A stretch of 64,000 nucleotides of DNA from a virus (Duplodnaviria > Caudoviricetes): the IMG/VR virus record IMGVR_UViG_3300010149_000008. The stretch is one strand, 5' to 3'. A program made the position numbers and the translations under genes. Positions 28,262-55,936 of this stretch are shown here, one piece after another. Every line of letters begins with the position of its first letter. The first letter of the stretch is position 1. Below the pieces are notes generated by a model. That model was not told the DNA's origin and did no database searches. It was given only the letters and a program-made list of their open reading frames with translations.

Positions 28262-28483
28262 ATGGAAAATAAAGATTTTAAATTAGATGACAATGTTATT
28301 GCACACATTGCAAGAATTTTACAGGTTTCAATGCTTACTGGAACTGATATTATTGATCATATGAGAATGATTAGATTTACTTGTAAAGATGAAAAGTTAG
28401 TATTGCAAGATGAGTACGCAAAAATTTTTGATGGATCTTTAGACAACATGCTTAAAAATGCGCAAGAAAAGAAAGATGACTAA
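28262..28483 (+). CDS. Hypothetical protein
   Basis: 73-aa ORF with RBS AGGA, translationally coupled to the next gene. Confidence 0.65.
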   Translation: MENKDFKLDDNVIAHIARILQVSMLTGTDIIDHMRMIRFTCKDEKLVLQDEYAKIFDGSLDNMLKNAQEKKDD

Positions 28484-28860
28484 TGAACAAAGACAAATTG
28501 TTTGATATTTTTGAAAAGCGTGAAAGTTTTATGCATTTAATTAAGCAAAAATTTGAAGACTCTTACCCACAGTGGCCAGTTGATTTATCAACAAAAAAAG
28601 CACAGCATACATGTAGAGAGACAGCGCTTAAAGGTGTTGAAGAAATGTTTGAAGCACTTGGTCATCTAAAAAACTGGAAGCCTCATCGCGAAACAGAAAT
28701 GCCTGAAATTGATAGAGAAGAGTTCTTAGAAGAAATTGTAGACGCTTTTAATTATTTTTTCTCTCTAATGATTTTAATCGGAGTTGACGTTGAAGAATTC
28801 TATACAGCTTTTTTAAGCAAGGATGAGATCATAAGAAATAGAATTATTCAAGGATACTAG
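28483..28860 (+). CDS. All-alpha NTP pyrophosphatase (dimeric dUTPase / MazG / T4 gp56 dCTPase-like)
   Basis: EEMFEAL..LKNWKPHR....IDREEFLEEIVDAFNYF carries both acidic metal-binding helices of the superfamily. Confidence 0.8.
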   Translation: MNKDKLFDIFEKRESFMHLIKQKFEDSYPQWPVDLSTKKAQHTCRETALKGVEEMFEALGHLKNWKPHRETEMPEIDREEFLEEIVDAFNYFFSLMILIGVDVEEFYTAFLSKDEIIRNRIIQGY

Positions 28861-28862
28861 AT

Positions 28863-29534
28863 GTGATAAGTAAGCATGACACAATTAGTTTGTTTGGCAA
28901 CAAAAGCCTAAGAGCGTCATGCTTTGTATCATATGTGTGGAATATAATAGAAGACAAAATATTATATGTTCTAGGTATGACAAACAGTAATACAATTACT
29001 GTTTATATTGACAATGACAGCATAATATTTTCAGCTACTTCTAATCATAACATATTATGCGTTGAAAGATTTAACTTTTTTTACGATCATGTTTTAACAT
29101 CAATGACAGACTTATGCATAACTTTAACTGTAAACTTTATATCTTCTAAAATAAAAAAAATAAATTATGACATGTGCTCTTTTTACTATGACATAGAAAA
29201 CAAAGAAGATGATGGTATGATAGAAATATACTGTGACGCTTACTATGACATTGAAAGCTATAAAGATTTTAAGACAGAAATTACAATTCAACTAGCAAGA
29301 GAACTGCAGTATCTTATACATAGGAATATTATTGAAAGCAACATCGATACATGTGAAGTTGCAAAAATAGATTCAGTTTTTGAATGTGTTAATATTGTTA
29401 GAAAAGTAAAGAGTATAAGTTTTAAATCAGCAGCTGATTATTTACTTAATATAGATAAAGTGTCTATAGAAGAATATCAAGAAGTGTGTAATATAAACAA
29501 AGAGGTTGAACATGAAATCAGAAAACAACAATAA
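28863..29534 (+). CDS. Hypothetical protein
   Basis: 223-aa ORF with a GTG start, packed inside the operon. Confidence 0.5.
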   Translation: MISKHDTISLFGNKSLRASCFVSYVWNIIEDKILYVLGMTNSNTITVYIDNDSIIFSATSNHNILCVERFNFFYDHVLTSMTDLCITLTVNFISSKIKKINYDMCSFYYDIENKEDDGMIEIYCDAYYDIESYKDFKTEITIQLARELQYLIHRNIIESNIDTCEVAKIDSVFECVNIVRKVKSISFKSAADYLLNIDKVSIEEYQEVCNINKEVEHEIRKQQ

Positions 29535-29880
29535 AACTAGGCGAAGCGATTTAGCTTATGAGGCAAAAGATCTTTTACAAAAAGCTTCACGTGTTCCTAC
29601 AAAATGGTTAGATATTTTTAATGCTATAGAAATGTTTAGAAAAAAAGTACAAGCAGGAAGAGATTCATACGACTCTACAGCTAACGATTCGCAAGTAGGT
29701 CTAATGTCACCAATGCTTGTCATGTTTGCTTTAATGCTTGAGACTAACATGTTAATGGAACCATTAGACACAAACATAATAATAAACATACTTTCAGATA
29801 ATTTCCGTGAAGAAAGGCACATTGAAACGCTTAAAGAGCTACTGCGTACACTTCACCCAGAAAAAAAAGAGTTTAAATGA
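29506..29880 (+). CDS. Hypothetical protein
   Basis: 124-aa ORF with RBS GAGG, overlapping its neighbours. Confidence 0.55.
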   Translation: MNMKSENNNKTRRSDLAYEAKDLLQKASRVPTKWLDIFNAIEMFRKKVQAGRDSYDSTANDSQVGLMSPMLVMFALMLETNMLMEPLDTNIIINILSDNFREERHIETLKELLRTLHPEKKEFK

Positions 29881-30803
29881 AAAATAATTTAACTATTAAA
29901 AGCTTACTAAAGCTTCAAGACAATTTTTCTTCTACATTTTATGATAAAAAAACAATGTCAGCAAAACAAAAAGAAGAAATGTTAAAAACAATTACATTAG
30001 CAATGCATCATGAAGTATCAGAAATTGTTTCTTCTTCTAACTTTAAAGTTTTTGATAAAACTGACTATGAAGTAGATAAAGATAAGATTTTATATAATTC
30101 TATAGATGTGTTTAGATATCTAATGGCAATAATGAATCTTTATGAAATATCTAGCGAAGAATTTATTTCTTCATTTGACGAGAGAGATATTCATTTAAAA
30201 GTAAGCAAGAACATTAAAAGCCCAGAAACATCTCAAAAGGTTATTGTTGTTGACATAGATGACGTTGTTTGTGACTTTCGTAACTATTTTAATAATTGGT
30301 TGTATAAGACTTACGGTGTTTACGTAGATCAAAATAATACTTCTTACTATTCTTCAAAAGAAGTAAAAAATAAAGGTTTGAGTCCTGAAGGTGTTTTTGA
30401 AAATTTCATTTCATGTAATGAATTTCTTAACATTCCACCAATAGATAGCATGGTAAAATTTCTAAGGTTGGCAAAAGAAGAAAATATATACATTCAGCTC
30501 CTTACTTCTAGACCAAGCAGCAATTTAAAATGTAAATATCAAACTTATGCTTGGCTAGAAAATAACAATATACCTTTTGACAATTTAGACTTTGCGGCAG
30601 AAAAATATATTTGGGTTGCAAAACGTGACTTTTATTTAAACGGGAATTTAATGTGTGCTATAGATGACAGTCCTAAACATGCAATGGAGTACGCAACTCA
30701 CGACATTAAAGTCTTTGTACCAAAAATGCCATACAATGATCAAATAAGTCATGAAAACATACATCACTACGTTCTTGAAGACTTAGAAAAATTTAAATTT
30801 TAA
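29877..30803 (+). CDS. Fusion of an all-alpha NTP-PPase-like domain and a HAD 5'(3')-deoxyribonucleotidase
   Basis: The N-terminus aligns by eye to 28483..28860. The C-terminus has HAD motifs VDIDDV, LLTSRP, K and IDDSP. Confidence 0.75.
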   Translation: MKNNLTIKSLLKLQDNFSSTFYDKKTMSAKQKEEMLKTITLAMHHEVSEIVSSSNFKVFDKTDYEVDKDKILYNSIDVFRYLMAIMNLYEISSEEFISSFDERDIHLKVSKNIKSPETSQKVIVVDIDDVVCDFRNYFNNWLYKTYGVYVDQNNTSYYSSKEVKNKGLSPEGVFENFISCNEFLNIPPIDSMVKFLRLAKEENIYIQLLTSRPSSNLKCKYQTYAWLENNNIPFDNLDFAAEKYIWVAKRDFYLNGNLMCAIDDSPKHAMEYATHDIKVFVPKMPYNDQISHENIHHYVLEDLEKFKF

Positions 30804-30895: not shown

Positions 30896-31882
30896 ATGCC
30901 TGTTAACAACAATCTTGAACCAGTAGCACTTCCTATGCAGCTTAAGTTTGGACAAGATCCAGTTACAAATTACATTAACAATCTAGAATCACTAAAAGTA
31001 GAAGTAATTGATGCGCCTACAAGAGAACAAGCACAAAATATTGCTTGGCACATGACAAAAGCAACATGGGCAGATTCACCTTCTGAAACTGATTTTAAGA
31101 ACTCAACACCCGAAGAGGCTTCTACAAATCTTCAAGATGTACTTAATTTTCGTGCACTTCCTACTCCAATGGAGTGTTTAGGATTTACATTTAAGATTAG
31201 TGGTATTGATGTACAAACTGTTACACATCTTATTCGTCATAGAGCAGGATCTTTTGCAGCACAATGTACAGGTGACAGAGACTTGAGACACGATAATGCA
31301 CTAGTTCCTGAGTCAATTGAAAACTGCAGAAAAGATGATGATGACTTTTATTTTAGGTATTTAGATATTGTCAAGGAAGCAAAACTACTATACTCTGAAA
31401 TGGTTGATAGCAAAAAAGTTTCAATGATGGACGCAAGAGTAATACTTCCTAAGTGCATGGAGACTTTTTATATTGCAAGATTTAATCTTAAAGACTTGAT
31501 CGGTTTTATTAAACAACGTCAAGACGTTCAAATCCAACCTGAGGTTGATAATATTTTAGCAACGCGCATCGCACGTGCTGTTTGTGAAGCAATTCCAGAA
31601 GTATCAACTTGTCTAGACTTTAACAAGCCTGATATGCACTACGTAAGAACTTTTAGAGTTAAATTGCCAGATGGAACTTACACTTCTCGTGGAACAAATC
31701 TATATCAGCCAGAACCTAAAAATGATTTATTTGATTATAATGAAAATGATTCAATATACCAGTGCAAAAGAGAAGACTTAAATGGTAATAAGTCAGGTGA
31801 AGAAAAAGTATTTACACGAATGTGGAATGACGATGTAAAAGCTGTAAGTTTAATTAAACAAAAACTTAATAGCGAATTTTAG
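30896..31882 (+). CDS. Divergent ThyX-like flavoprotein
   Basis: FTFKISGID...HLIRHRAGSFAAQCTGDR, DARVILP and FIKQR..Q.Q.E retain the ThyX scaffold, but the signature is altered. C-terminal extension of about 90 aa. Confidence 0.8.
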   Translation: MPVNNNLEPVALPMQLKFGQDPVTNYINNLESLKVEVIDAPTREQAQNIAWHMTKATWADSPSETDFKNSTPEEASTNLQDVLNFRALPTPMECLGFTFKISGIDVQTVTHLIRHRAGSFAAQCTGDRDLRHDNALVPESIENCRKDDDDFYFRYLDIVKEAKLLYSEMVDSKKVSMMDARVILPKCMETFYIARFNLKDLIGFIKQRQDVQIQPEVDNILATRIARAVCEAIPEVSTCLDFNKPDMHYVRTFRVKLPDGTYTSRGTNLYQPEPKNDLFDYNENDSIYQCKREDLNGNKSGEEKVFTRMWNDDVKAVSLIKQKLNSEF

Positions 31883-33413: not shown

Positions 33414-34403
33414 ATGAGAATAGCAATTACTGGAGAAAAAGGATTTATTGCAAGAAATCTTGCAGTTGAAATTAGTAAAAACAATCATGAATTTATTTCT
33501 TTAGACAACTCGTCTTATGCAAATGAGTTTATGAACTATACAAAGTCTGAAGAAGTTTGTGTACATAGTAATACTGTTGATAAGTGGGTTGAATTATTTG
33601 ATGAGTTAGAGTTAGATGTTATAGTTCACAACGCTGCTGTAGTTGGAACTGATGTTGTAGCTCTTAATCCTAAAGATGCTGTACTGACAAATGTGTTAGG
33701 CACTAAAATAATTACAGAGGCAGCAAACATTTCAGGTCAAACAATAGTATATACTGGCACAACAGTAATTTATGATACTTTTGAGTATCAAGACAAAGAG
33801 TTGTCTGAAGAAAGTAAAGTTTTTCCTAGGACTGATTATGCAATACAAAAGTATGCTGGAGAAATGATTGTACGAAACAATGCAAAAGAGTGGCTAGTTA
33901 CTAGGCCTTTGTTTGCTTACGGTGGTGAAGGTGATATGAACTCACTTATAGCAAAATCTTTGTTTGCTATTAAAAACAACATAAAAAACGTTGACATGTT
34001 TCTTAATCCTGAAAAGATTAAAGATTATATGCACGTAGAAGACTTTTGTTATAGCGTAATACAGCTTATTAATTCAAAAATTAGAAATATGGATTTTAAT
34101 ATTACAGCAGCAAACCCACACTCAACGCTAGAGATTGTTAATATGATTGAAGAAGTAACAGGAAAAAGCTTAACTGATTATATTAAGTGGCATCCGGAAA
34201 CTGACTATCTTGGAAATCATAGGTTAAGTAACAACAAGTTTCAAGAATTTATGGGATTTACAAAGACTAGACTTTTAAAAAGTGGTATTAGTCAATCATG
34301 GGAATCAATTCAAAATTCAGAAAGTAATTATAATCCTCTTAAACATCTAAAGCAAGCAAAAGAAGAAAGTGTTGACTTAAAAGAATTTTTTCCTATGTTT
34401 TAA
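33414..34403 (+). CDS. NAD-dependent nucleotide-sugar epimerase/dehydratase (extended SDR)
   Basis: ITGEKGFIA Rossmann loop, HNAA, T in YTGTT, YAIQK (YxxxK), RP..AYG, KDYMHVEDF. Confidence 0.88.
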   Translation: MRIAITGEKGFIARNLAVEISKNNHEFISLDNSSYANEFMNYTKSEEVCVHSNTVDKWVELFDELELDVIVHNAAVVGTDVVALNPKDAVLTNVLGTKIITEAANISGQTIVYTGTTVIYDTFEYQDKELSEESKVFPRTDYAIQKYAGEMIVRNNAKEWLVTRPLFAYGGEGDMNSLIAKSLFAIKNNIKNVDMFLNPEKIKDYMHVEDFCYSVIQLINSKIRNMDFNITAANPHSTLEIVNMIEEVTGKSLTDYIKWHPETDYLGNHRLSNNKFQEFMGFTKTRLLKSGISQSWESIQNSESNYNPLKHLKQAKEESVDLKEFFPMF

Positions 34404-38608: not shown

Positions 38609-41600
38609 TTGTCTATTGATTTAATAACACCACCAAATAGATTTGTATCGCTTCATTCACACTCAACTTTTAGTACTTTTGATGGTCTAGGATATCCAGC
38701 AGATCACATTGATTTTGTTCTTTCTGAATCACAAGGAATGGATGCTTGGGCACTAACAGATCATGGTAATGGTAATGGTCTTGCACATGCTCATTCGCAT
38801 GCTGTTAAAATGCAAAAAGCAGGCAGAAAGTTTAGACAAATATACGGAGTAGAATTCTATTTTGTTCCTTCACTAGATCAGTGGACTAGCGACTATGCAG
38901 ATCACAAGCAATCAATTAAAGATGCAAAAACAGCTGCTGCAGCTGAAAAGAAGAGTAAAGAAAAAATCATTATTGATGCTGATGATGAGAGTGGTGGTCT
39001 TGTCATAGAGGATGAAGATGAATCTAAAAAGATTGATATACTTAAAGATGAGTGGAAGCGACGTTATCACTTAGTAGTTACAGCAAGAAATAGAAAGGGT
39101 CTTAATAATCTATTTACCCTTGTAAAAAAATCATACAAAGACGGCTTTTATAGATACCCGCGCATTGACTTTAAAATGCTTAAAGAGCACGGCGAAGGTT
39201 TACATGTCAATACAGCATGCTTAGGAGGCATATACAGTAATAGAATACTTCGTGGTGTAGCTCATGACAAATCACGTGATGAAATCCAAAAAGACCTGCA
39301 AAACTTATCAGATAGATTTACAGATGCTGTTGGTATTGAAAACTTTAAGTTAGAGCTACAATTTAACAAACTTAATAAGCAACACGTTGTTAATGACTAT
39401 CTTATTGAGCATCATAAGCTAACGGGTATTCCACTTATATCAACAGCAGACTCTCATTACCCGAGCAATGACAAATGGCAAGCAAGAGAGTTATATAAAA
39501 AGCTTGGATGGTTAGGCAAGAAAGATGGTCTAACGCTTCCAGCATTTGAAGATCTTAAGTGTGAGTTGTATCCAAAAAACGCTCAGCAGATGTGGGATGA
39601 GTTTCTTGAAGGTTACAAAGAACACGATTTTTATAAAGGTAACGAGCAGCTAGTTAAAGAGTCAATAGAAAGAACACATGACATTGTCTGGAATGATTTT
39701 GAAGATACTTGGATAGATGTAAGTGCAAAGCTTCCAACAATATCAATTCCTAACAAAACACCTTTTAAACACCTATCAGACTTAGTCAAGAACGCTTTAA
39801 TCAGCGAAGGTTTACATACTAACAAAGAATATGTAGATAGAGCTAAATATGAATTGTCTGATATTAAGTATTTAGGACATGAAGCTTATTTCATTACAAT
39901 GTATGAAATCTTTAAAAAGGCTGAAACGAAGACATTATTTGGTCCTGCTCGAGGAAGTGGTGGAGGTTCTTTGGTTAACTATCTATTAGGCATTACTCAG
40001 CTTGACCCTATTCCTTATAACTTACTTTGGAGCAGATTCTTAGGTAGGCATCGTGTTTCTTGGCCAGACATAGACACAGATGCTGGTGATCGCGATGAAC
40101 TCATCAATGCAGCTAAAGAGCTATACGGTGATGATGCTGTTATTCCAGTATCAAACTTCAACACACTTAAGCTTAAGTCGCTAGTAAAAGATATTGCAAA
40201 GTTTTATGATATTCCATTTGACGAAGTAAATAAGGTAACTGGCCCTCTTCAAGATCAAGTAATGCAAAAAGCAATGGACAAGAATCAAGAAAAGTCTGTG
40301 TTCGTTCTTAAGCATGAAGATTGCATGAAACACTCTCCTGAGTATAATTCGTTTATGACAGAATACCCAGAAGTTGCTGAGCATGTTGAAACTTTATTTA
40401 TGCAGAATAGAGCTATTGGTAGACATGCAGGAGGCGTAATAATAGCAGATGCTGATTCACTAGCTGAATCTATGCCTATTGTTGGTGTTCGTGGTGAACT
40501 ACAAACTCCGTGGACAGAAGGTATGAACTTTAGAAATCTTGAAGATAACGGATTTTTAAAGTTTGACTTTTTAGGTTTAACACTGCTCAAGGACGTAGAA
40601 AACTGTATATATAGAATTCTTAAAAAACAAGGAAATCCTAACCCAACATTCTCAGATGCTCGAGCATTTTTTGATAAGTATTTAAATTGTAGGTTTGTAA
40701 AACAGGATGATAAAAAAGTTTGGGAACATGTATATAAGGACGGTCACTTTTGCGGTGTTTTCCAATTTACAGCTGTAGGTGCAAGAAACTTTGCAAAAGA
40801 GGCAGAGCCTGATTCAATTGAGGAACTAGCAGCATTAACTGCAATTTACCGTCCGGGACCTCTTAAAGCAAATGTACATAAGAAATATGTTAAAGCAAAG
40901 AGAAACGTAGGTGATATAAAATATGAGCATCCTATTATTGAAAAGATACTTGGCCCAACATTTAACTATGTAGTGTTTCAAGAGCAGTTTATGCTTTTAG
41001 CACAAGAGCTAAGCGGATTTGATCCTGGCGAAGCTGACAAGCTTAGAAAGACTTTGGTAAAGAAGTCTTTAGATACTCTACATTCTAAAGGCTCAGAAAA
41101 GGCAATTGCTAGAGATAAGTTTATTAAAGGTGCTAAAGAGCTAAACGATGTTCCAGAATCAGTATCATCTAAGTTATGGGCAGACATAGAAAATTTTGCT
41201 GTTTACGGCTTTAACAAATCCCATGCTATTGCATATGCTATCGGGTCATATTATGCTGCTTGGTTGCATACTCATTATGAGACTGAGTGGCTTGCTGCGA
41301 TATTGCAATCTGAAAATGGTAATCCTAAAGGCATGTCAAAAGCAATTTCAGAGATTAAATCTTTTGGTTACGAGATTGCTGCAATCGATATAAATCACTC
41401 AGGTCTAGAATGGGAATATTCTGATGTGTTGAAAGCCTTTGTGCCGCCTTTGACTTCTCTTAAAGGAGTAGGAGACAAAGCTGTTGAAGAAGTATTTGCA
41501 AATAGACCATACAAAAATTTAAATAATTTATTTTATGATACAGAAGGTGCATGGAAACATTCAAAGCTAAACAAAACAGCTTTTTCATCGCTAGCGAAGA

Positions 41601-42184
41601 TGGAAGCATTTAAGTCTCTTGATGAGTTTAAAGATAATACACTTGATAATCATAAACAACTCCATGATTTGATCCTCGATAATTATGCTATTTTAAAGAA
41701 AGGTTATTGGGGAATGACAAAAACTGCAGTAAAAAGAGCAAAAAAGAACGAAGAAACAATTGTCCCTATTGTAGATCATTTAATTACTAGATATAAAGTT
41801 ATTAGTGACTGGTGCAGATCAGAAAAAATAAAGAATTATTTCAATCTCAGCAATGATGCAAGTGATGACCTCCTATTTCCACCTAAATTAATAAATCGAT
41901 TAAAACAGAAACAAATTAACAGCGTATTTGATATACCACAAGGTGAAAGAGGAATTGGCTGGTTTACAGTTACTGAGGTAATACATAAGACAACAAAGAA
42001 TGGTAAGGCTTTTATGCGCTGGAAGTGCGTTGACTCAGATAATCGTAGTGGCTGGCTACGTGTGTGGGGAAGCATTGAAGAAGGAGTTGAATTTAGTACA
42101 TGGCTTGTAGACGTAAAGAATGATGCTGGTTGGGGTATGTCTACTAATTTAGGCAAGCTTAAAAAGATTAATGCTTTTGATTAA
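38609..42184 (+). CDS. dnaE: Family C DNA polymerase III alpha subunit
   Basis: PHP domain (HSHSTFS.FDG, TDHG, DSHY), GPARGSGGGSLV, PDIDTD catalytic motif, GRHAGG, KFDFLGL, YRPGP, FNKSHA, C-terminal OB fold. TTG start with RBS AAGG. Confidence 0.95.
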   Translation: MSIDLITPPNRFVSLHSHSTFSTFDGLGYPADHIDFVLSESQGMDAWALTDHGNGNGLAHAHSHAVKMQKAGRKFRQIYGVEFYFVPSLDQWTSDYADHKQSIKDAKTAAAAEKKSKEKIIIDADDESGGLVIEDEDESKKIDILKDEWKRRYHLVVTARNRKGLNNLFTLVKKSYKDGFYRYPRIDFKMLKEHGEGLHVNTACLGGIYSNRILRGVAHDKSRDEIQKDLQNLSDRFTDAVGIENFKLELQFNKLNKQHVVNDYLIEHHKLTGIPLISTADSHYPSNDKWQARELYKKLGWLGKKDGLTLPAFEDLKCELYPKNAQQMWDEFLEGYKEHDFYKGNEQLVKESIERTHDIVWNDFEDTWIDVSAKLPTISIPNKTPFKHLSDLVKNALISEGLHTNKEYVDRAKYELSDIKYLGHEAYFITMYEIFKKAETKTLFGPARGSGGGSLVNYLLGITQLDPIPYNLLWSRFLGRHRVSWPDIDTDAGDRDELINAAKELYGDDAVIPVSNFNTLKLKSLVKDIAKFYDIPFDEVNKVTGPLQDQVMQKAMDKNQEKSVFVLKHEDCMKHSPEYNSFMTEYPEVAEHVETLFMQNRAIGRHAGGVIIADADSLAESMPIVGVRGELQTPWTEGMNFRNLEDNGFLKFDFLGLTLLKDVENCIYRILKKQGNPNPTFSDARAFFDKYLNCRFVKQDDKKVWEHVYKDGHFCGVFQFTAVGARNFAKEAEPDSIEELAALTAIYRPGPLKANVHKKYVKAKRNVGDIKYEHPIIEKILGPTFNYVVFQEQFMLLAQELSGFDPGEADKLRKTLVKKSLDTLHSKGSEKAIARDKFIKGAKELNDVPESVSSKLWADIENFAVYGFNKSHAIAYAIGSYYAAWLHTHYETEWLAAILQSENGNPKGMSKAISEIKSFGYEIAAIDINHSGLEWEYSDVLKAFVPPLTSLKGVGDKAVEEVFANRPYKNLNNLFYDTEGAWKHSKLNKTAFSSLAKMEAFKSLDEFKDNTLDNHKQLHDLILDNYAILKKGYWGMTKTAVKRAKKNEETIVPIVDHLITRYKVISDWCRSEKIKNYFNLSNDASDDLLFPPKLINRLKQKQINSVFDIPQGERGIGWFTVTEVIHKTTKNGKAFMRWKCVDSDNRSGWLRVWGSIEEGVEFSTWLVDVKNDAGWGMSTNLGKLKKINAFD

Positions 42185-43161: not shown

Positions 43162-44055
43162 ATGAGATTTTTAAATATTAATATAGAAGGTCCTGATTGT
43201 AGTGGTAAGACTACACTTTTTAATAGAATTCATAAAGAAACAAGCTTTAAGTACAACATACAAGACAGAAGCTGTATGTCAATGTATGTTTATGCAAAAT
43301 TGTATGAAAGAGATAACGCTTCTTTTTGGTTTGATAAAGTTCTTGAAGACATTAAACGATTAGATACATTATATATTGTTCTTTTACCTTCAAACCATAC
43401 TGTGTTAGAAAGACTAAGAAAAAGAGGTGATGAGTTTCAAGATGAAGAAAGCATTATGGATGTCAAACGTTTATTTTACAACTTAGTTAAATGCGGATTT
43501 GGTAACTTTCCAAATGTTTTAGTGCTAGAAGACATTGAAGATTTAACGCAGAAAGTTGATATGTGTTTAAGCTTTATTGAAAGTTTAAATGAATTTCCTA
43601 GTGGCGACTTAATAAAGTCTATTGTTATTAATAGCGGCAGAAACGAATTAGTTGACGTACAATGCAAGGAAGTAGTTGACATTAGCTCTTTAGACTACAC
43701 AGCATTAAATTTTCCTGAAGAAAAATCGTATTATGAAAAAATTACTACAGATATTGAAAATAAGATCTTTAAAGAATTTGCAGGTTTAAATTCACATAAT
43801 ACACCACAAAAACATGACAGTAGAAGATTTGTTTATACTGATGCAAGTTGTATATCGCTTATTCATGCTTTGTTTCGAAAGAACAGACTAAACGTTTCAG
43901 TGACACTTAGATCTTCAAATGTAATTAAAACACTCTGGGCAGATTATGAATTTTTAAAGATAATTAGTGTAAAATTAGCAGAACTTATGCAACTTGACGA
44001 AAGCATACCAGTCGATTTGACTATTAATATAAGGTCTGCACATATTGTACCTTAA
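43162..44055 (+). CDS. dNMP kinase fused to a minimal thymidylate-synthase-fold domain
   Basis: N-terminus IEGPDCSGKTT and QDRS (TMPK family). C-terminus SRR, C230-X19-R250-S, D261 and SAH294, with spacing that matches TS catalytic residues. Confidence 0.78.
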   Translation: MRFLNINIEGPDCSGKTTLFNRIHKETSFKYNIQDRSCMSMYVYAKLYERDNASFWFDKVLEDIKRLDTLYIVLLPSNHTVLERLRKRGDEFQDEESIMDVKRLFYNLVKCGFGNFPNVLVLEDIEDLTQKVDMCLSFIESLNEFPSGDLIKSIVINSGRNELVDVQCKEVVDISSLDYTALNFPEEKSYYEKITTDIENKIFKEFAGLNSHNTPQKHDSRRFVYTDASCISLIHALFRKNRLNVSVTLRSSNVIKTLWADYEFLKIISVKLAELMQLDESIPVDLTINIRSAHIVP

Positions 44056-44064
44056 GGAAATTAA

Positions 44065-44634
44065 ATGAATCCGTTTTTTAAAATATATACGGGTCCAATG
44101 TTTGGATCAAAAACAACAAGGCTAGTAGCAGAAATCGATCGTTCTTCTTATAAAGACAGAAAAATTTTTGCTTTTAAAGCAAAGAAAGATAAAAGATACG
44201 ACGCTGAATCTATATCTACACATAGTGGTGTTACATGGCCTGCAATTTGTATCAATGATGCACTAGAAATATTTGACTATTTAAACGATGATTATAATCT
44301 TTCTAATGTGTTAATTGCTGTAGACGAAGCTTTTATGATTAAAGGAATTGATGAAGCTTTAATTTCTTTATTTTTTAAAGGCGCTAATATTGTAGTTTCT
44401 ACAATTCAATTAGATGCAAACGAAAGACCTTTTGAAAATATAAAAAACATGTTGCCTTTTGCAACGCATATTGAAATTTGTCCGGCAGTTTGTACAAAAT
44501 GCAATAACGATGCTTATTATACAGCAGCAATGTTTGACATAGATAACGCAACAGATGAAGAGCGAGTTGGTTCTAAAGACATGTATGAGCCAAGATGCTC
44601 AAAACATTACAAGGCATTTTTTAAATATGAATAG
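44065..44634 (+). CDS. tdk: Thymidine kinase
   Basis: GPMFGSKTT, VDEAF, CTKC and YEPRCSKHY zinc site. Confidence 0.9.
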   Translation: MNPFFKIYTGPMFGSKTTRLVAEIDRSSYKDRKIFAFKAKKDKRYDAESISTHSGVTWPAICINDALEIFDYLNDDYNLSNVLIAVDEAFMIKGIDEALISLFFKGANIVVSTIQLDANERPFENIKNMLPFATHIEICPAVCTKCNNDAYYTAAMFDIDNATDEERVGSKDMYEPRCSKHYKAFFKYE

Positions 44635-44664: not shown

Positions 44665-45561
44665 ATGTCAATAAAATTTAAATCAGCAGAAATGTACTAT
44701 GGAATACGTGTATACATTTCTGAAAATTCAGACAAAGATTTTTATTTAACAAAATCTTTGATTAACAACTTAAAAAACGTTGAAATAAAATTTAGACAAA
44801 ATAGAATAAATACACCGGTAGCAGACTTATTTAAACATCTTGTTATAATAAAAGGAAGTAAAGAAAGAAGTAGTATTGACAAGATACATAAATCTGGAGC
44901 TGCTAATTGGAGGGCTTTTTTTAATCCAGACACAGAGACTATAGCTTTTGACTTGCAACACTTTAAAAACGAAGAAGCATTAATTAATACTTTAGTTCAT
45001 GAAATAGGTCATGCAATACATGTTAAATTTGTAACGCCAGATGCTAGCAAATACATTTCAGTAGTAGGAAAACAATATGTTAATGTTATAGTTAGTCTCA
45101 AAGACCTTAAAAGTATTGTTGAACAAAACGTACATGACGACGACTTGTGCATGAGACTTATAAAAAAAGCTGAAGATGTATTTTATGATTTTGCAGATTT
45201 ACTAGATAACAGTATTAATTCTTCAGACTACGATGAAAATCATAAAACTTCAAATATTTCTTTCCAAATATGTGAAGAATATGAACTGTATCTTAAGGAA
45301 AAAGGAATTAAAACTTATGTTTCAAAAATTGAAAAAATGATTAGTGTAATAATGAAATTTATACCTTCTGAGTATGGTGCCACAGAAGAGAAAGAGTTTT
45401 TTGCTGAGTGTTTTAGGCAGTTTATTTTAAGCCCAGATGATCTTTCTTTGAACAATAGAAACATGATCATTAATGCATTAACATATTCTAGAGCACAAGG
45501 TAAAGAATTAATGCAGGCACATAAGCTTTTAAAAAACTATGTTAGATATATTATTGATTAA
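44665..45561 (+). CDS. Zincin-like metallopeptidase-domain protein
   Basis: LVHEIGHAIH (HExxH) and a distal SEYGAT..KEFFAECF third-ligand motif. Confidence 0.7.
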   Translation: MSIKFKSAEMYYGIRVYISENSDKDFYLTKSLINNLKNVEIKFRQNRINTPVADLFKHLVIIKGSKERSSIDKIHKSGAANWRAFFNPDTETIAFDLQHFKNEEALINTLVHEIGHAIHVKFVTPDASKYISVVGKQYVNVIVSLKDLKSIVEQNVHDDDLCMRLIKKAEDVFYDFADLLDNSINSSDYDENHKTSNISFQICEEYELYLKEKGIKTYVSKIEKMISVIMKFIPSEYGATEEKEFFAECFRQFILSPDDLSLNNRNMIINALTYSRAQGKELMQAHKLLKNYVRYIID

Positions 45562-45985: not shown

Positions 45986-46411
45986 ATGGAAAATATAGCT
46001 CGTCCCTCTTGGGACAAAATATGGATGACAATGGCAGAAACTATTGCACAAAGAAGTCATCATTCTACTTTCAAGGTAGGCGCTATTATAGTAACGTCAG
46101 ATAATACACAAGTGCTTTCTTTGGGGTATAATGGTAATGCTGCAGGATTATCAAACGTACCTCAATCTGAAGAACCTGGCTGTAGTGGTTTATTACATGC
46201 TGAAATTAATGCTTTACTTAAGCTGGATTATAATAACCCAAAAGATAAAGTTATGTATTTGACGTTAAGCCCTTGCACAAACTGCGCGATCGCTGTTATT
46301 AATAGTGGAATAAAAAAAGTAGTCTATAAAACAAAGTATAGAGACGATACAGGCATTAACATGTTAACATCTGCAGGTGTGTTAGTAGAGCAATTTAATT
46401 TAAACAAATAA
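45986..46411 (+). CDS. dCMP deaminase
   Basis: RPSWD..WM..A..IA.RS, VGA.IV, GYNG, HAEINA, SPCTNC. Confidence 0.9.
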   Translation: MENIARPSWDKIWMTMAETIAQRSHHSTFKVGAIIVTSDNTQVLSLGYNGNAAGLSNVPQSEEPGCSGLLHAEINALLKLDYNNPKDKVMYLTLSPCTNCAIAVINSGIKKVVYKTKYRDDTGINMLTSAGVLVEQFNLNK

Positions 46412-46483: not shown

Positions 46484-49400
46484 ATGAGTCTAAAACTTAA
46501 AGACGCTTTATTTGAAACTAATGAAAAAAATCTATATAAGATTTTTGAAAAAGCAGATAAAAGAGAACTTGAAGGAAATGTTCAAGCGCTTAATAAGCAA
46601 AAACTACAAGCTGTGGTTAAAGCAATTGCAACTTCTTTAAATAACAAGTTACCGGATACGGAAACTGTAAAGCTAAAAGACGTAATGAAGTCTCCTTTAG
46701 GTGTTTTTGGTTTTAATGACATTAAAGCACTATCAAATGTTCCTATTGCACTAGGTCTAAAAATTGATCCTGTTAACATTAAAGGAGATCAATCACAAGG
46801 CATTGATCCTCTTTCTTTTAAAGCTGCAGATACTTTTGATATTATGCCAATACAGATTGTTAACAAATTTGGTGAGGCAATAGGTGGAAATGTTAAAGGC
46901 AACGAGATGATAGGAATTGCTTATTTTCCTGCAATAATGAAACCTTTAGATAATCCAGAATTTCATGTTAAAAGATTTGGATTGAAGCCTCCAGAAAAAG
47001 GTAATACTTTAATGCATATGAAGGTACCTTTAGATATTCCTGTTGAGCTGGTTACTAAAGAAGAGTTTGAAGAGATTCAAAAAGCTTTTCTTACAGGTAA
47101 AGAAGCAGTTATTAATAGAATTAGTAATTTGCAAAAGTCTAGAATAAGTGGAGGAGTTCCGGAGCAAGCAGGTCAAAGTGATGTTGCTATGTCAAAGAAT
47201 AAGAGAAAAACATCTGCAGACAATAAAGATGCGAGTAGTAACGAAGATAAAGATATAGACAACAAGACAGATTCAATAGAAAAACCAGATAAAATGCCAG
47301 AAGCATTTAACTTTTCTACAGGAAAAAAACTTCATGAACATTCTTTGTCATCATTGCTTTTAGAGAGTCAAGATGAAGATCCAGTTACAGAACCTGCAGC
47401 AAAATTGGACAAAGGTGGTGCGCAAGCGGAAATCGTTCCTCAACGAGTTGAATTTATGCTTAAAGATTTTCCTGGAGTAACTATTGAGCAAATGTTTTCT
47501 GTAGGTTCTGATATTTTTGCAGGAGATGAAAAAATAAGAAAAGCTGGTGTTGCCGGCGTTATTGACGATAATATAGAACAAAAACTAGATTCATATTTTG
47601 ATAGTATGAGTAGCTTTCAATTAGCATGTTTTTATCTGTACCTTGAAGCTATAGGTGAAATGGATGAATTTAATGCTACAGCTAATCAAACGGTATGGAA
47701 AAATTATATAAATAATAATTTTGGTGGTTCTATAGAAAATATGGTAACCGCGTTTAAAAGCAATCCTGAATCTCTTGATTTAAAACAAAATGGTATTACT
47801 AAAGATGAATTAGTAGCTTTATTTGATGATTTAAAACAACCTGAAGTTCAGGTTGCAACTCATATAGATAATTCTGTAAGTGGTGATAGTAAAGGATCGG
47901 CTACAGACCCTTTCAGTGAAGATCTTGATTCATTGTTTGACATAATAGATGTTGATGGTGTTGATGGTTGGTCGAACATGGATCCAGATGAACAAATAGA
48001 TGCAGTGAGCTCAAATCTAAGTGGCAGTCAATTACAACAAGTACTTAATACAGCTGAAGAAAACACTGGTAACGAAATGACGATACAAGCATTAACAAAT
48101 GCTGATGCACCTTTTTGCAATTTAGTTGTTGGAAATGAAAAAGAAAGTGACGAAAAATCTAGTATTCTATTTTTTCAAAGTATACAAATGTCCCCTAAAG
48201 GTAGACGTAAAAAAAATATTGTCTTTATAATCTTATTTAAAGATAATGGTGGCTACGAATTTTTAAGGAAAGATCATAAATTTGATACATACAAAGAAAT
48301 AATAGATAATCTTGCAGACTGCGCACTATATGATATTTCAAAAAACAAAGAACCCGATGTGCTTTCTATTTTATCTAGAATAAAAGAATTAGATGCCACC
48401 GAAGGCAAACAAACGATTACTAAAACGCTTCAAGATGAATTTAATATAGATATTGAACATCTTGAAAGTCAAGATGATGACAAAGGGCAAGAAAAACCAG
48501 ACGAAATTCAACAAGCTAGTTCTAAAGTTCCTAATGCGCCAAGCGAAGAAGAGCAAAAAGCTTACGAAGGATTTCAAGATATTTTTAGTGCTAATCGATA
48601 TGATAATAATTTGTCGACAGCGCAAAATAATATTTCAAAAGTACAAGACACAGAGCAAAAAATTCCAGATAAAATAAAGTCTAAAATCGATCAGATTGAC
48701 AAATTATCTGGAGTCGATCAAAATGATATTAAAAATGTAGGTGCGCTTTTAAATGCAAAGAGCGATTTATGTCGAACTATGTCAACTGTAATGGATGACG
48801 TAGAAGATTGTGCAAAAAATTTATCAAAACTTGTAAAATTTAAACCAAAAATAAGTGAAGAAGGCGAAGAACGAAAATTTGTGCCTAAGTATAGGACTAA
48901 ATCTTTTGTTGCGGGTCTTGATTATGTTAAAAAAGTTGCTAATTTAGTAGAAGAAACTTTTAATGCTATGGGAATTAGTGAATTTCTTTCTCAAGAAAGT
49001 GAATCTCAAAATACTGTTGCTATGCTTAATAACAGTGCTCGTCCAATTGTAAAAAGTATATTAGACTTTAAATATAAAGATAATAAAAGATCATATTCTC
49101 AATTTAGTCAATGGAGCAAAACTTATAAAATAAGTACTCGAGTAAATGATCAGTGGGAAAAAAAGACTGGCGATGATGTTAAAAATTCTATTCAATATTT
49201 AATTGAAGAGTTAGTAAAAGCATTTAAAAAAGGCTCAGCACAAATAGAAAAAGAGCTTAATAATGCTATTGAAGATTTTAGTAAAGAAAACGCTGAAGCT
49301 TTAAGTAAAGTTGAACAAGGTGCCTTTAATTGGCGTGAAGGTTTAAAATATGATATTGATAAAATATACAAGCCTTTTAGTAAAATAAGTGGTATTGATA

Positions 49401-55198: not shown

Positions 55199-55936
55199 AT
55201 GCATATAAATAATTTAATTAAAAAAGCGATCGCTGAAACATTAGAAGAAAAAGGATTATCAACCAATGCTAGTCAAGAAAGATTAACAGAGAACAATCTT
55301 GTTTCATCTGGAGTTATGTCTGAGGCTTATGTCGCTGAAGCTGGAAAGTTTAATTTAAAAACAGAACTTTTATCAGATAAAACTAAGAAAGCACATCAAG
55401 AACTTTTAGAAGGATACGTTGAAAATCTTAACAAAGTTTCTGCAAAGTTAGACGGAGTAGACAAATCTTCAGCTAATTTAAACCACTCTGACTTTCGAAA
55501 CTTAAAGGTAGACGAAACTTACAATCATAATGCTGCATTTTTACATGGCATGTATTTTGAAAACATAAGTGACTTAAATAGTCAGATTACAGTTGATTCA
55601 TTGACTTATATGAAGTTAGCAAGAGACTTTGGCACGTTTGATAAGTGGCAAGAAGATTTTGTTGCTTGTTGTCTTTCAGCAAGAAATGGTTGGGCTGTTA
55701 CTTTTTATAATCCAAATCTTAAAAGATATATGAATACTGTTATTGACTTACATAGCCAAAACGTAATGATTAGCATGCTTCCAGTTGTTGTAATGGATTG
55801 TTGGGAACATAGTTATTATAGAGATTATCTTAAAGACAGAAAAACATATGTCTATGGAATGATGAAAGAGATAGATTGGTCTATTGTTGAGAATAGAGTT
55901 AAATTATCTGAAAAAATTGCGAAAGTGTTAGGTTAA
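55199..55936 (+). CDS. sod: Fe/Mn superoxide dismutase with an N-terminal extension
   Basis: H in KAHQELLEGYVENLN, H in AAFLHGMYF, signature DCWEHSYYRDY, FGTFDKWQEDF...GWA. Confidence 0.85.
   Translation: MHINNLIKKAIAETLEEKGLSTNASQERLTENNLVSSGVMSEAYVAEAGKFNLKTELLSDKTKKAHQELLEGYVENLNKVSAKLDGVDKSSANLNHSDFRNLKVDETYNHNAAFLHGMYFENISDLNSQITVDSLTYMKLARDFGTFDKWQEDFVACCLSARNGWAVTFYNPNLKRYMNTVIDLHSQNVMISMLPVVVMDCWEHSYYRDYLKDRKTYVYGMMKEIDWSIVENRVKLSEKIAKVLG

What the first reader, a model, noticed from the sequence alone, without database searches (positions are those of the whole stretch)
43162..44055. dNMP kinase fused to a minimal thymidylate-synthase-fold domain carrying the dCMP-specificity Asp
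Seen: C230 (43849) lies exactly 20 residues before R250-S251, as C146 does before R166-S167 in E. coli ThyA. Eleven residues after the Arg, where ThyA has Asn177, this protein has D261 (RSSNVIKTLWADY). ThyA Asp169 is Asn here. The protein stops at SAHIVP, just after the His of the HxY motif. Established: Asn at 177 selects dUMP and Asp selects dCMP, as in T4 dCMP hydroxymethylase. The domain is only about 110-150 aa and seems to lack the segments that bind folate. Inference: a dCMP-activating enzyme doing folate-independent or partner-dependent C5 chemistry, channelled straight to its kinase. I do not know of a described fusion like this.
Basis: partly seen in the sequence, partly recalled or inferred. 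Interest (0 to 1): 0.87.

Follow-up and report, generated by a model that had tools for sequence, protein, structure and literature searches.

The report
Nucleotide kinase fused to minimal dCMP-modifying domain
A gene of an uncultured marine jumbo phage fuses a nucleotide kinase to a stripped-down, 150-residue version of the thymidylate-synthase fold; the domain keeps the dCMP-type active site and most resembles the recently described flavin-dependent dCMP 5-hydroxylases, so this abundant phage group probably puts a modified cytosine in its DNA.

Summary
ORF 43162-44055 (+, 297 aa) has a YorR/thymidylate-kinase-like P-loop kinase domain (residues 1-145). Residues 146-297 form a real, minimal thymidylate-synthase (TS) fold: the AF2 model has pLDDT 96-97, and an exhaustive structure search puts seven TS-fold enzymes on top (Z 9.1-11.5), with the next fold at Z 5.7.

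The best structural and profile match is AfhB of phage HY126 (near-identical to RB69 gp48), the flavin/O2-dependent dCMP 5-hydroxylase published in 2025-26.

All are at least 90% conserved in a family of about 290 viral proteins that reaches down to about 25% identity.

The window's protein carries the published 5-hydroxy-dCMP-synthase signature (ThyA D169→N, N177→D, acidic residue before the Cys). It lacks about 60-70 residues, including the wall of the cofactor pocket.

A homodimer model passes its controls with a TS-like interface.

My best reading is a bifunctional dCMP C5-modifying enzyme plus kinase, with 5-hydroxylation the likeliest chemistry. Catalysis is not shown: the D169-equivalent residue toggles N/D within the family, and some lineages have lost the catalytic residues.

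The same scan noted a Cys-less copy of this fusion in another genome.

I rate it a new variant of a known kind.

The parts
43162..44055 (+). Whole ORF, 297 aa plus stop: kinase fused to a minimal TS-fold domain
   Evidence: AF2 model pLDDT 97.2, pTM 0.90. About 290 homologs of the same length and architecture.
43162..43596 (+). N-terminal P-loop nucleotide kinase domain (residues 1-145), YorR / thymidylate kinase / deoxynucleoside kinase type
   Evidence: VIA-align: YorR 2axp Z 13.5, M. mycoides dAK 2jaq Z 13.1, Aquifex TMK Z 12.4, over model residues 4-151. Profile against PDB: YorR E 6e-14, TMK 1e-7. phrog_761 thymidylate kinase 5e-15.
43189..43215 (+). P-loop GPDCSGKTT (residues 10-18)
   Evidence: E9, G10, D12, G15 and K16 are at least 90% conserved.
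43264..43269 (+). D35-R36, the 'DR' motif of TMK/dNK-type kinases (binds the phosphate-acceptor nucleotide)
   Evidence: At least 90% conserved. Aligned to the DR of YorR and Aquifex TMK.
43411..43431 (+). LID-like basic segment RLRKRGD (residues 84-90)
   Evidence: R84, R88, G89 and D90 are at least 90% conserved. Aligned to RLRVRGDE of YorR.
43597..44052 (+). C-terminal minimal thymidylate-synthase-fold domain (residues 146-297)
   Evidence: Domain model pLDDT 96.3. VIA-align against 48,161 chains: 9iqc AfhB Z 11.5 (140 of 152 residues aligned, rmsd 3.1), three ThyA chains and one DHFR-TS Z 9.8-10.8, MilA 9.3, T4 dCH 9.1; next fold Z 5.7. All top 50 Foldseek hits are TS fold.
43729..43731 (+). 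Y190, aligned with ThyA Y94
   Evidence: Alignment. Nearly invariant in the family.
43816..43827 (+). D219-S220-R221-R222, equivalent to ThyA D124-S125-R126-R127 (phosphate-binding arginines donated across the dimer)
   Evidence: R221 in 69/74 and R222 in 67/74 sequences. Both lie in the predicted dimer interface.
43849..43851 (+). C230, equivalent to the catalytic nucleophile ThyA C146 / T4 dCH C148
   Evidence: Present in 68/74 sequences. D227 lies three residues before it, where ThyA has L143 and the dCMP-modifying homologs have Asp/Glu.
43909..43920 (+). R250-S251-S252-N253, equivalent to ThyA R166-S167-C168-D169. N253 is the 'D169N' position.
   Evidence: R in 69/74 and S in 70/74. Position 253 is N in 41, D in 23, H in 4.
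43942..43944 (+). D261, equivalent to ThyA N177 / T4 dCH D179 (cytosine-selecting residue)
   Evidence: Present in 71/74 sequences.
44041..44043 (+). H294, equivalent to ThyA H207. The protein ends three residues later, with V296 in the place of Y209.
   Evidence: Present in 68/74 sequences.
44065..44634 (+). Thymidine kinase, the next gene downstream (conserved neighbour)
   Evidence: PF00265 E 1e-29. Synteny in relatives.
45986..46411 (+). dCMP deaminase (conserved neighbour; directly abuts the fusion gene in distant relatives L019-L021)
   Evidence: PF00383 E 3e-23.
38609..42184 (+). DnaE-type DNA polymerase III alpha (conserved upstream neighbour)
30896..31882 (+). Divergent ThyX-like flavoprotein gene, co-conserved with the fusion gene
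   Evidence: PF02511 E 2e-20, below the TIGR02170 cut-off. A roughly 72-bit ThyX-like gene is present in 5 of 5 other viral records that carry the fusion, and lies within 5 kb of the polymerase gene in L019-L022.
28483..30803 (+). Candidate all-alpha NTP pyrophosphatase genes (dUTPase_2-like, 28483-28860; dUTPase_2 + NT5C nucleotidase fusion, 29877-30803), possible suppliers of dCMP. Two ORFs without a Pfam hit (28863-29534, 29506-29880) lie between them.
   Evidence: the first is weak, E 0.006. Homologs lie next to the ThyX-like gene in L020-L022.

Best explanation
The gene encodes a homodimeric, bifunctional enzyme of phage nucleotide metabolism.

The C-terminal 152 residues are a minimal thymidylate-synthase fold that binds dCMP. 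The phosphate is held by R250, S251 and, across the dimer, R221'/R222'. The cytosine is read by D261. Cys230 attacks C6 to activate C5, and a substituent is put on C5.

The likeliest substituent is a hydroxyl group from O2 and reduced flavin, giving 5-hydroxy-dCMP. That is what the closest relatives do (HY126 AfhB, RB69 gp48), and they share the N253/D261/acidic-before-Cys signature.

The N-terminal YorR/TMK-like kinase then phosphorylates the modified dNMP to the diphosphate, so that it reaches the phage DNA polymerase. This mirrors gp42 plus gp1 in T4, and gp48 plus a dNMP kinase in RB69.

Shown here: the two folds, the conserved active-site residues, the family and its synteny, and a predicted TS-like dimer.

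Inferred: dCMP as substrate, catalytic activity, the nature of the C5 group, and the kinase's substrate.

My sub-odds are:
- TS fold: 0.97.
- Binds dCMP or a C5-modified dCMP: 0.8.
- Catalytically active: 0.6.
- Product is 5-hydroxy-dCMP: 0.35.
For: Fold:
- Model pLDDT 97.2 for the full protein and 96.3 for the domain.
- The exhaustive VIA search puts seven TS-fold chains on top (9iqc AfhB Z 11.5; three ThyA 10.3-10.8; a DHFR-TS 9.8; MilA 9.3; T4 dCH 9.1), then a gap to Z 5.7.
- AfhB is also first in Foldseek and in the profile-against-PDB search.
- hhalign against RB69 gp48: probability 91.5%, E 8e-7.

Active site:
- Y190, R221, R222, C230, R250, S251, D261 and H294 map onto ThyA Y94, R126, R127, C146, R166, S167, N177 and H207.
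- They are 8 of the 13 columns that are at least 90% conserved in a C-domain alignment whose mean column identity is 24%.

Signature:
- PMC13326640 reports that N177D gives dCMP preference.
- It reports that L143D/E goes with non-methyl products.
- It reports that D169N is diagnostic of 5-hydroxy-dCMP synthases; nine diverse D169N homologs made 5hodC in vivo.
- The window's protein has D261, D227 and N253.
- The C-terminal truncation just after the His is already nearly complete in RB69 gp48, which ends 13 residues after SAHVFE.

Kinase link:
- The same paper lists a YorR/TMK-like 'nucleotide kinase' one to three genes from the synthase in DLP3, RB69 and RL38J1.
- It shows that co-expressing a dNMP kinase raises 5hodC incorporation.
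- Here YorR is the top hit of the N-domain.

Dimer: full-length homodimer score 0.87 against 0.00 for the best of 3 controls. That mark was reached by 20 of 30 solved homodimers and 1 of 23 monomers. The interface contains R221/R222 and the Cys, Arg and His strands, as in TS dimers.

Context: the gene set resembles T4's, with RNR, dUTPase, all-alpha NTPases, ThyX, TK and dCMP deaminase. Synteny is conserved down to 33% identity.
Against: - No activity data exist for any member of this family.
- Compared with AfhB/gp48, the domain lacks about 40-55 residues between the first strand and the Tyr (in ThyA, helix B to W80/W83, one wall of the cofactor pocket). It also lacks 16 residues between SRR and the Cys. 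It is therefore unclear where a flavin or folate would bind.
- The D169-equivalent residue is N in only 41 of 74 relatives (D in 23). It switches at least 5 times on the tree, so the published diagnostic may not carry over.
- Six of 81 aligned members, in at least 4 separate places on the tree, have lost Cys/Arg/His yet keep the domain. This points to a role beyond catalysis, such as dimerisation.
- Glycosyltransferase genes, the usual companions of 5-hydroxycytosine, were found near the fusion only in one distant sub-lineage (L019-L021). They were not found in the window's 115-kb, 46%-complete record.
- Pfam PF00303 does not recognise the domain.
- The dimer pass may partly reflect the model's memory of TS dimers.
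Confidence: 0.5

Rival explanations
1. The TS-like domain is not a catalyst. It is a dCMP (or modified-dCMP) binding and dimerisation module that gives the fused kinase its substrate selectivity or regulation. The C5 chemistry is done by another enzyme, for example the co-conserved ThyX-like flavoprotein.
For: The cofactor-pocket wall and the C-terminus are deleted. Catalytic residues were lost repeatedly while the domain and the kinase were kept (an earlier scan note records a Cys-less copy in another genome). The predicted dimer is built by the TS-like sheet and also touches kinase residues 28-59. A ThyX-like gene is present in all 5 other records that carry the fusion.
Against: A pure binding module would not need the nucleophile Cys (68/74), the Tyr94 equivalent, or the His207 equivalent to stay nearly invariant at 25-55% identity. 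The position equivalent to D169, which contacts cofactor rather than nucleotide in ThyA, stays polar (N/D/H/E) in nearly all members with an intact active site.
Confidence: 0.25
2. The domain is a folate-dependent dCMP hydroxymethylase or methylase like T4 gp42. The missing part of the folate site is supplied by the kinase domain of the partner subunit or by another protein.
For: T4 dCH is among the best sequence and fold matches. 23 of 74 relatives have Asp at the D169 position, as ThyA and T4 dCH do. Kinase residues 28-59 lie in the predicted inter-subunit interface.
Against: The window's protein and its whole clade have Asn at that position. In ThyA the D169N mutant does not promote opening of the cofactor ring (PDB entry title 1bjg), and in the published survey Asn marks the hydroxylases. 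W80/W83-type and C-terminal folate contacts are absent. No DHFR or folate gene was seen in the window.
Confidence: 0.12
3. It is a plain dTMP or dNMP kinase with an evolutionarily decaying, inert TS-derived tail.
For: Public annotations call some members 'thymidylate kinase'. A few members have degenerate TS motifs.
Against: The tail folds with pLDDT 96. It is kept at full length in about 290 proteins. Its TS active-site residues are its most conserved columns.
Confidence: 0.03

Closest known systems
5-hydroxy-dCMP synthase / dCMP hydroxylase of the TS superfamily (phage HY126 AfhB, PDB 9iqu/9iqc; RB69 gp48; DLP3 gp80)
   Same: It is the best structural hit (Z 11.5, 140 residues aligned) and the best profile hit. 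It shares the SRR, Cys, RS-x-N, Asp and SAH motifs in register. The N177D, D169N and acidic-before-Cys signature is the same. The short C-terminus after the His is shared. A YorR/TMK-like kinase gene lies in the same cluster.
   Different: The domain here is 152 aa against 217-238 aa. It lacks about 40-55 residues of the helical cofactor-side region and a 16-residue loop before the Cys. It is fused to the kinase instead of being a separate gene. Sequence identity is only 13-19%. No flavin binding or product has been shown. No arabinose or UDP-sugar genes or glycosyltransferases were seen in this record.
T4 dCMP hydroxymethylase gp42 together with dNMP kinase gp1
   Same: It has the TS fold with Cys148 and Asp179 equivalents. 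The logic of 'modify dCMP, then phosphorylate it' is the same. The gene set is similar (dCMP deaminase, TK, RNR, dUTPase).
   Different: gp42 keeps Asp at the D169 position (D171) and a folate site. gp1 is a different kinase family and a separate protein. Here the two activities would sit on one chain.
E. coli ThyA (classical thymidylate synthase)
   Same: The fold is the same (Z 10.3-10.8 to bacterial ThyA chains). Equivalents of Y94, R126, R127, C146, R166, S167 and H207 are present. The predicted dimer uses the same sheet.
   Different: N177 is Asp here and D169 is Asn. Roughly residues 36-90 and everything after residue 210 are missing. The Pfam model does not hit.
SPbeta YorR (PDB 2axp/3kb2) and bacterial thymidylate kinases
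   Same: The N-domain has the same fold (Z 13.5 and 12.4), P-loop, DR motif and basic LID segment.
   Different: YorR's own substrate is not established. The domain here is shorter than TMK (145 against about 200 aa) and carries the TS-like domain.
Viral 'Thymidylate kinase/Thymidylate synthase domain-containing protein' cluster of the ESM Atlas (437 aa, 62 members; automatic name only)
   Same: It has the same domain order, a kinase followed by a TS fold, and occurs in Uroviricota.
   Different: Its TS domain is full size and is recognised by PF00303. TM-score to this model is only 0.45. I could not retrieve its sequences to check the active-site signature.
Stand-alone mini TS-like proteins (for example Synechococcus phage S-CBWM1 A0A3G1L3Q7, 151 aa; metagenomic A0A0F9MSN6, 187 aa)
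   Same: They have a similar minimal TS fold (TM 0.58-0.73).
   Different: They are not fused to a kinase and are uncharacterised. Their residue signatures were not examined.

Membership tests
Thymidylate synthase superfamily (TS fold; ThyA / dCH / MilA / AfhB) | TS alpha/beta fold | tested here: met
   VIA-align: seven TS-fold chains at Z 9.1-11.5 with 131-140 of 152 residues aligned; next fold Z 5.7. The Foldseek top 50 are all TS fold.
Thymidylate synthase superfamily (TS fold; ThyA / dCH / MilA / AfhB) | Catalytic Cys nucleophile (ThyA C146) on the central strand | tested here: met
   C230 aligns with C146/C148. It is conserved in 68/74 sequences.
Thymidylate synthase superfamily (TS fold; ThyA / dCH / MilA / AfhB) | Phosphate-binding arginines R166 and R126'/R127', plus S167 | tested here: met
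   R250, S251, R221 and R222 are aligned and at least 90% conserved. An R21 equivalent (R160) is not conserved.
Thymidylate synthase superfamily (TS fold; ThyA / dCH / MilA / AfhB) | Obligate homodimer through the beta-sheet, with the Arg pair reaching into the partner's site | tested here: inconclusive
   The predicted homodimer passes (0.87 against best control 0.00; that mark was reached by 20/30 solved dimers and 1/23 monomers). R221/R222 and the core strands lie in the interface. This is a prediction only and may draw on memory of TS dimers.
Thymidylate synthase superfamily (TS fold; ThyA / dCH / MilA / AfhB) | Match to the curated sequence model (Pfam PF00303) above its cut-off | tested here: not met
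   PF00303 gives no hit at E <= 1. Only PHROG phrog_160 hits, at E 2e-4 over residues 227-295.
Thymidylate synthase superfamily (TS fold; ThyA / dCH / MilA / AfhB) | Folate-binding segments (helix B/E58, I79-W80-W83, C-terminal residues) | tested here: not met
   The alignment with ThyA, gp42 and gp48 shows roughly ThyA 36-90, and everything after H207+3, absent.
5-hydroxy-dCMP synthases (AfhB / RB69 gp48 type) | Asp at the ThyA N177 position (dCMP preference) | tested here: met
   D261, present in 71/74 sequences. The criterion comes from PMC13326640.
5-hydroxy-dCMP synthases (AfhB / RB69 gp48 type) | Asn at the ThyA D169 position (published diagnostic residue) | tested here: met
   N253 is present in the window's protein and its whole clade. 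Family-wide it is N in 41, D in 23 and H in 4 of 74, and it changes repeatedly on the tree.
5-hydroxy-dCMP synthases (AfhB / RB69 gp48 type) | Acidic residue at the ThyA L143 position | tested here: met
   D227 lies three residues before C230. In most relatives the Asp is two residues before the Cys.
5-hydroxy-dCMP synthases (AfhB / RB69 gp48 type) | Binds a flavin and uses O2 to hydroxylate C5 | not testable with these tools
   This needs protein chemistry. The region that walls the cofactor pocket in full-size homologs is deleted.
5-hydroxy-dCMP synthases (AfhB / RB69 gp48 type) | Accompanied by DNA glycosyltransferases or NDP-sugar genes | tested here: inconclusive
   Two weak GT4/GT1-like genes lie 3-5 kb downstream in L019, with unsearched ORFs of the same size at the same place in L020-L021. 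NAD epimerase/dehydratase genes occur in the window (33414-34403) and beside the fusion in L022. No GT1 was found in the window's record or in 4 of 5 other fragments, all 30-53% complete.
T4-type dCMP hydroxymethylase | Asp retained at the ThyA D169 position and an intact folate site | tested here: not met
   The residue here is N253, and the folate-side helices are absent.
P-loop NMP/deoxynucleoside kinases (TMK / dNK / YorR) | Fold, Walker A P-loop, DR motif and basic LID | tested here: met
   Z 12-13.5 to YorR, dAK and TMK. GPDCSGKT, D35-R36 and R84..R88-G-D are conserved. Pfam TMK/dNK hits are below the cut-off (21-23 bits against 27).
P-loop NMP/deoxynucleoside kinases (TMK / dNK / YorR) | Substrate: a (modified) dNMP rather than a nucleoside | not testable with these tools
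   This is inferred only, from the fusion to a dNMP-binding domain and from the separate TK gene next door.

The most novel reading that the evidence does not exclude
A 150-residue TS core that has shed its own cofactor pocket still hydroxylates, or otherwise modifies, dCMP. It would work as a two-component system: reduced flavin (or another C5 donor) comes from the co-conserved ThyX-like flavoprotein, and the product passes directly to the fused kinase across the dimer. In that case a widespread group of marine jumbo phages would replace cytosine with 5-hydroxycytosine or a new C5 derivative.
Probability: 0.15. Interest if true: 0.85.

Novelty: new variant of a known kind. Interest (0 to 1): 0.66.

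Why it matters
[quoted passage not shown] There are about 290 family members, on contigs up to 278 kb, with Tara Oceans records among the sources.
- The fusion is 'Rosetta-stone' evidence that the YorR/TMK-like kinases sitting beside 5-hydroxy-dCMP synthase genes in RB69, DLP3 and RL38J1 work on the synthase's product.
- It defines the smallest TS-fold enzyme candidate so far (about 150 aa). That makes a clean test of which parts of the fold are needed for pyrimidine C6 activation and which for cofactor handling.
- It predicts modified cytosine in these phages' DNA. This would affect restriction/CRISPR evasion and how well their genomes are sequenced.

Tried and rejected
- Pfam and NCBIfam gave only sub-threshold kinase hits and nothing for the C-domain.
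- tblastn of P0001 and of two distant homologs against 50,697 cultured-phage records found no fusion homolog. P0256 hit only a kinase-domain match in Geobacillus phage GR1.
- BLASTP and hhalign against RB69p045, the kinase of the RB69 cluster, aligned only the P-loop. No specific orthology can be claimed.
- The search for related loci with the 81-sequence alignment failed because no stretch was conserved enough. Single-protein queries were used instead.
- The look-up of encoding contigs for P0129, P0131 and P0224 returned contigs too short for context. P0224, a 149-aa C-domain-only call on a 696-bp contig, may be a split gene or a sequencing frameshift; this is unresolved.
- Glycosyltransferase searches in the window's own record were empty, but the record is only 46% complete.
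- The He et al. paper on the AfhB structure is not in the paper library, so I could not compare flavin-contacting residues.
- I could not obtain sequences of the 437-aa kinase-TS Atlas cluster.
- Using N versus D at the D169 position to split the family into two clean functional clades failed, because the residue toggles across the tree (quick tree only, the careful search did not finish).
Full report
**1. What is there**

The ORF 43162-44055 (+) is open and encodes 297 aa. It lies in a 31% GC, almost entirely plus-strand window full of phage replication and nucleotide-metabolism genes:
- gp32-like protein, RecA, DnaB, a family A DNA polymerase piece, class I RNR, trimeric dUTPase, ClpP, and an amidase;
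- a canonical ThyX (27099-27815) and a divergent ThyX-like gene (30896-31882);
- a dUTPase_2 + NT5C fusion, a nucleoside 2-deoxyribosyltransferase-like gene, and an NAD epimerase;
- DnaE-type Pol III alpha at 38609-42184;
- downstream of the finding, thymidine kinase and dCMP deaminase.

The window belongs to a 115.5-kb IMG/VR viral record estimated to be 46% complete. A gene call identical to residues 81-297 (217 aa) lies on a 192-kb contig, and close homologs lie on contigs up to 278 kb. It is therefore an uncultured jumbo phage, and no cultured phage is close.

**2. The observation**

One search confirms C230 (nt 43849), R250-S251, N253, D261 and the terminal RSAHIVP. I fetched E. coli thyA, T4 gene 42 and RB69 gene 48 from annotated records and verified the ThyA numbering. 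The spacings match: Cys to Arg is 20 residues, Arg to Asn177/Asp is 11, and Arg+3 is D169/N253.

- DSRR at 219-222 is identical to ThyA D124-R127.
- Y190 aligns with ThyA Y94.

**3. Is it a TS fold?**

Yes.

Sequence evidence is weak but in register:
- PHROG TS profile, E 2e-4;
- T4 dCMP hydroxymethylase by single-sequence phmmer, E 0.85;
- with a profile of the C-domain alone, HY126 AfhB (9iqu/9iqc) at E 0.0025 and T4 dCH at E 0.006 are the best PDB sequences;
- hhalign against RB69 gp48 gives probability 91.5%, E 8e-7.

Structure evidence is strong:
- With an 81-sequence alignment (A1) the AF2 model has pLDDT 97.2 and pTM 0.90. The C-domain alone (A2) has pLDDT 96.3.
- Foldseek puts AfhB first, followed by T4 dCH and many ThyA structures.
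- A search independent of Foldseek, against 48,161 representative chains, gives seven TS-fold enzymes on top: 9iqc Z 11.5 (140 of 152 residues aligned, rmsd 3.1), three ThyA chains at 10.3-10.8, a DHFR-TS at 9.8, MilA at 9.3, and T4 dCH at 9.1. The next fold scores Z 5.7.

Residues 1-148 are a P-loop kinase closest to SPbeta YorR (Z 13.5), a mycoplasma deoxyadenosine kinase and thymidylate kinases (profile E 6e-14 to YorR).

**4. What has been removed**

I aligned the domain with ThyA, gp42 and gp48 and used the secondary structure of the model. The domain keeps helix A, the first strand, the Tyr94 position, the helix leading into DSRR, the three core strands carrying Cys, Arg-Ser and His, and the long J-helix carrying D261.

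Three parts are missing:
- the helical region equivalent to ThyA 36-90 (E58, W80, W83; one wall of the folate pocket);
- a 16-residue loop between SRR and the Cys;
- everything beyond three residues after the His.

RB69 gp48 already ends only 13 residues after its SAHVFE, so the C-terminal loss is shared with the hydroxylase branch.

**5. The family**

- The search for homologous proteins gave 292 hits. The exhaustive representative search gave 288 at E <= 1e-3.
- The full-length hits are almost all 290-330 aa with the same two domains, down to about 23-30% identity. Sources are marine and other metagenomes, and Atlas clusters are 100% viral.
- In the 74-sequence diverse set the counts are R221 69, R222 67, C230 68, R250 69, S251 70, D261 71 and H294 68.
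- Mean column identity of the C-domain alignment is 24%. Of its 13 columns that are at least 90% conserved, 8 are TS active-site equivalents.
- R239 is also conserved. It matches the 'IRD' of both T4 gp42 and RB69 gp48 but not ThyA.
- The kinase motifs (P-loop, D35-R36, R84/R88-G-D) are equally conserved.

This rules out an inert tail.

Two cautions remain:
- Position 253 is N in 41, D in 23 and H in 4 sequences. On a quick ML tree it switches at least 5 times.
- Six of 81 aligned members, at four or more separate places in the tree, have lost Cys/Arg/His but keep the domain.

**6. Comparison with the literature**

Lee et al. (NAR 2026, PMC13326640) report the following:
- RB69 gp48, DLP3 gp80 and nine other diverse TS homologs make 5-hydroxy-dCMP from dCMP and O2 with a loosely bound flavin.
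- N177D gives dCMP preference.
- An acidic residue at L143 goes with non-methyl products.
- D169N is the diagnostic residue of this branch.

The window's protein has all three residues (D261, D227, N253).

Table 1 of that paper also lists a 'nucleotide kinase' one to three genes from the synthase: DLP3_078, RB69p045 and RL38J1_214. Their best structural matches are YorR or thymidylate kinase. In addition, co-expression of a dNMP kinase was needed for robust incorporation of 5hodC.

The fusion found here joins just these two kinds of protein. I found no specific sequence orthology to RB69p045 beyond the P-loop. I found no paper describing the fusion.

**7. Quaternary structure**

A full-length homodimer prediction scored 0.87 in three runs against 0.00 for the best of three controls. 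That mark was reached by 20 of 30 solved homodimers and 1 of 23 monomers.

The interface includes R221/R222, residues 224-251 and 287-294. These are the same sheet and the same Arg pair that form the TS dimer and its shared active sites. The interface also includes kinase residues 28-59, around the DR motif.

This fits an intact TS-type active site and places the kinase acceptor region against the partner subunit. It is a model only, and may lean on known TS dimers.

**8. Context in relatives**

- The order Pol III alpha, fusion, (TK), dCMP deaminase is kept down to relatives with 33-37% identity in the fusion protein. In L019-L021 the deaminase gene directly abuts the fusion gene.
- In L019-L022 the ThyX-like and deoxyribosyltransferase-like genes lie immediately upstream of the polymerase. 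The small all-alpha NTPase is there in L020-L022, and the NTPase-nucleotidase fusion in L022.
- A roughly 72-bit ThyX-like gene is present in all five other viral records that carry the fusion. The canonical ThyX is present in three of them.
- Two weak GT4/GT1-like genes lie 3-5 kb downstream in L019; L020-L021 carry ORFs of the same size at the same place, which I did not search.
- In L022 the fusion is flanked by a GMP-reductase-like gene and an NAD epimerase/dehydratase gene.
- No GT1 was found in the window's record or in four of the other five fragments. All of these records are 30-53% complete.

Glycosylation of a hydroxylated base is therefore possible in some lineages but is not supported for this one.

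**9. Mechanism and odds**

Best reading (0.5): a homodimeric bifunctional enzyme.
- The mini-TS domain binds dCMP through R250, S251, R221'/R222' and D261.
- Cys230 adds to C6, and C5 receives a substituent. The likeliest is OH from O2 and reduced flavin, as in AfhB/gp48 (about 0.35 on its own).
- The fused kinase then makes the diphosphate. This is the one-chain equivalent of T4 gp42 plus gp1.

Shown here: the folds, the residues, their conservation, the synteny and a predicted dimer. Inferred: the substrate, turnover, the product and the kinase's specificity.

Rivals:
- a non-catalytic dCMP-binding and dimerisation module for the kinase (0.25);
- a folate-dependent hydroxymethylase or methylase whose cofactor site is completed in trans (0.12);
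- a plain kinase with a decaying tail (0.03).

**10. Novelty**

The components and the chemistry class are known, so this is not categorically new. What is undescribed, as far as the searchable literature shows:
- the extreme minimisation of the TS fold;
- its fusion to the kinase;
- its spread in uncultured marine jumbo phages.

Related uncharacterised forms exist: stand-alone 150-190-aa mini-TS proteins and a 437-aa viral kinase-TS cluster.

I rate it a new variant of a known kind, with interest about 0.66.

Noticed in passing
window 30896-31882 (+); also L019:4962-5927, L022:1741-2724: A divergent ThyX-like gene (PF02511 E 2e-20, far below the thyX equivalog cut-off) sits beside a canonical ThyX (27099-27815). 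It occurs in all five other viral records that carry the kinase-TS fusion. It could be a partner or an independent pyrimidine-modifying enzyme.
   Followed up: partly
window 55199-55936 (+): A Fe/Mn superoxide-dismutase-like gene (Sod_Fe_C E 5e-20) is conserved downstream in relatives (54-72% identity in L012, L014, L016, L017, L022). This is unusual cargo for a phage, and could be relevant if an O2/flavin hydroxylase is at work.
   Followed up: no
L010:1067-7953, L014:366-6563, L016:4937-9919, L017:4166-9133, L028:4445-9477: In several relatives the Pol III alpha gene is broken into two to four ORFs by inserted genes with intein-splicing signatures (PF14890). The window's copy (38609-42184) is uninterrupted.
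   Followed up: no
L019:13745-16512: Two adjacent weak GT4/GT1-like glycosyltransferase genes (492 and 430 aa) lie 3-5 kb downstream of the fusion gene in this distant sub-lineage (ORFs of the same size in L020-L021 were not searched). They are candidate DNA glycosyltransferases.
   Followed up: partly
L022:8898-9986 and L022:10969-12009: In this relative the fusion gene is flanked by a GMP reductase/IMPDH-family gene (E 2e-72) and a GDP-mannose-4,6-dehydratase-like NAD epimerase (E 4e-46).
   Followed up: no
proteins P0123, P0127, P0131, P0188, P0193, P0206: These family members have lost the Cys, Arg-Ser and/or His of the TS-like site but keep the domain and the kinase motifs. They are scattered over the tree, which suggests repeated inactivation.
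   Followed up: partly
window 44665-45561 (+): A 298-aa ORF with an HEIGH zincin-type motif and weak SprT/MPTase-like hits (E about 0.02) lies between the TK and dCMP deaminase genes. Only a distant homolog is present in L014.
   Followed up: no
window 46484-54718 (+): A 2,744-aa ORF contains a low-complexity (AEAG/SEAG)n run. L007 has a 2,699-aa homolog, and ORFs of 1,081 to 1,880 aa occupy the same position in other relatives. It is probably a virion or injected protein.
   Followed up: no
window 29877-30803 (+): A fusion of an all-alpha dUTPase_2-type NTP pyrophosphatase with an NT5C-type 5'-deoxynucleotidase. It is conserved in L022 (35% identity).
   Followed up: no
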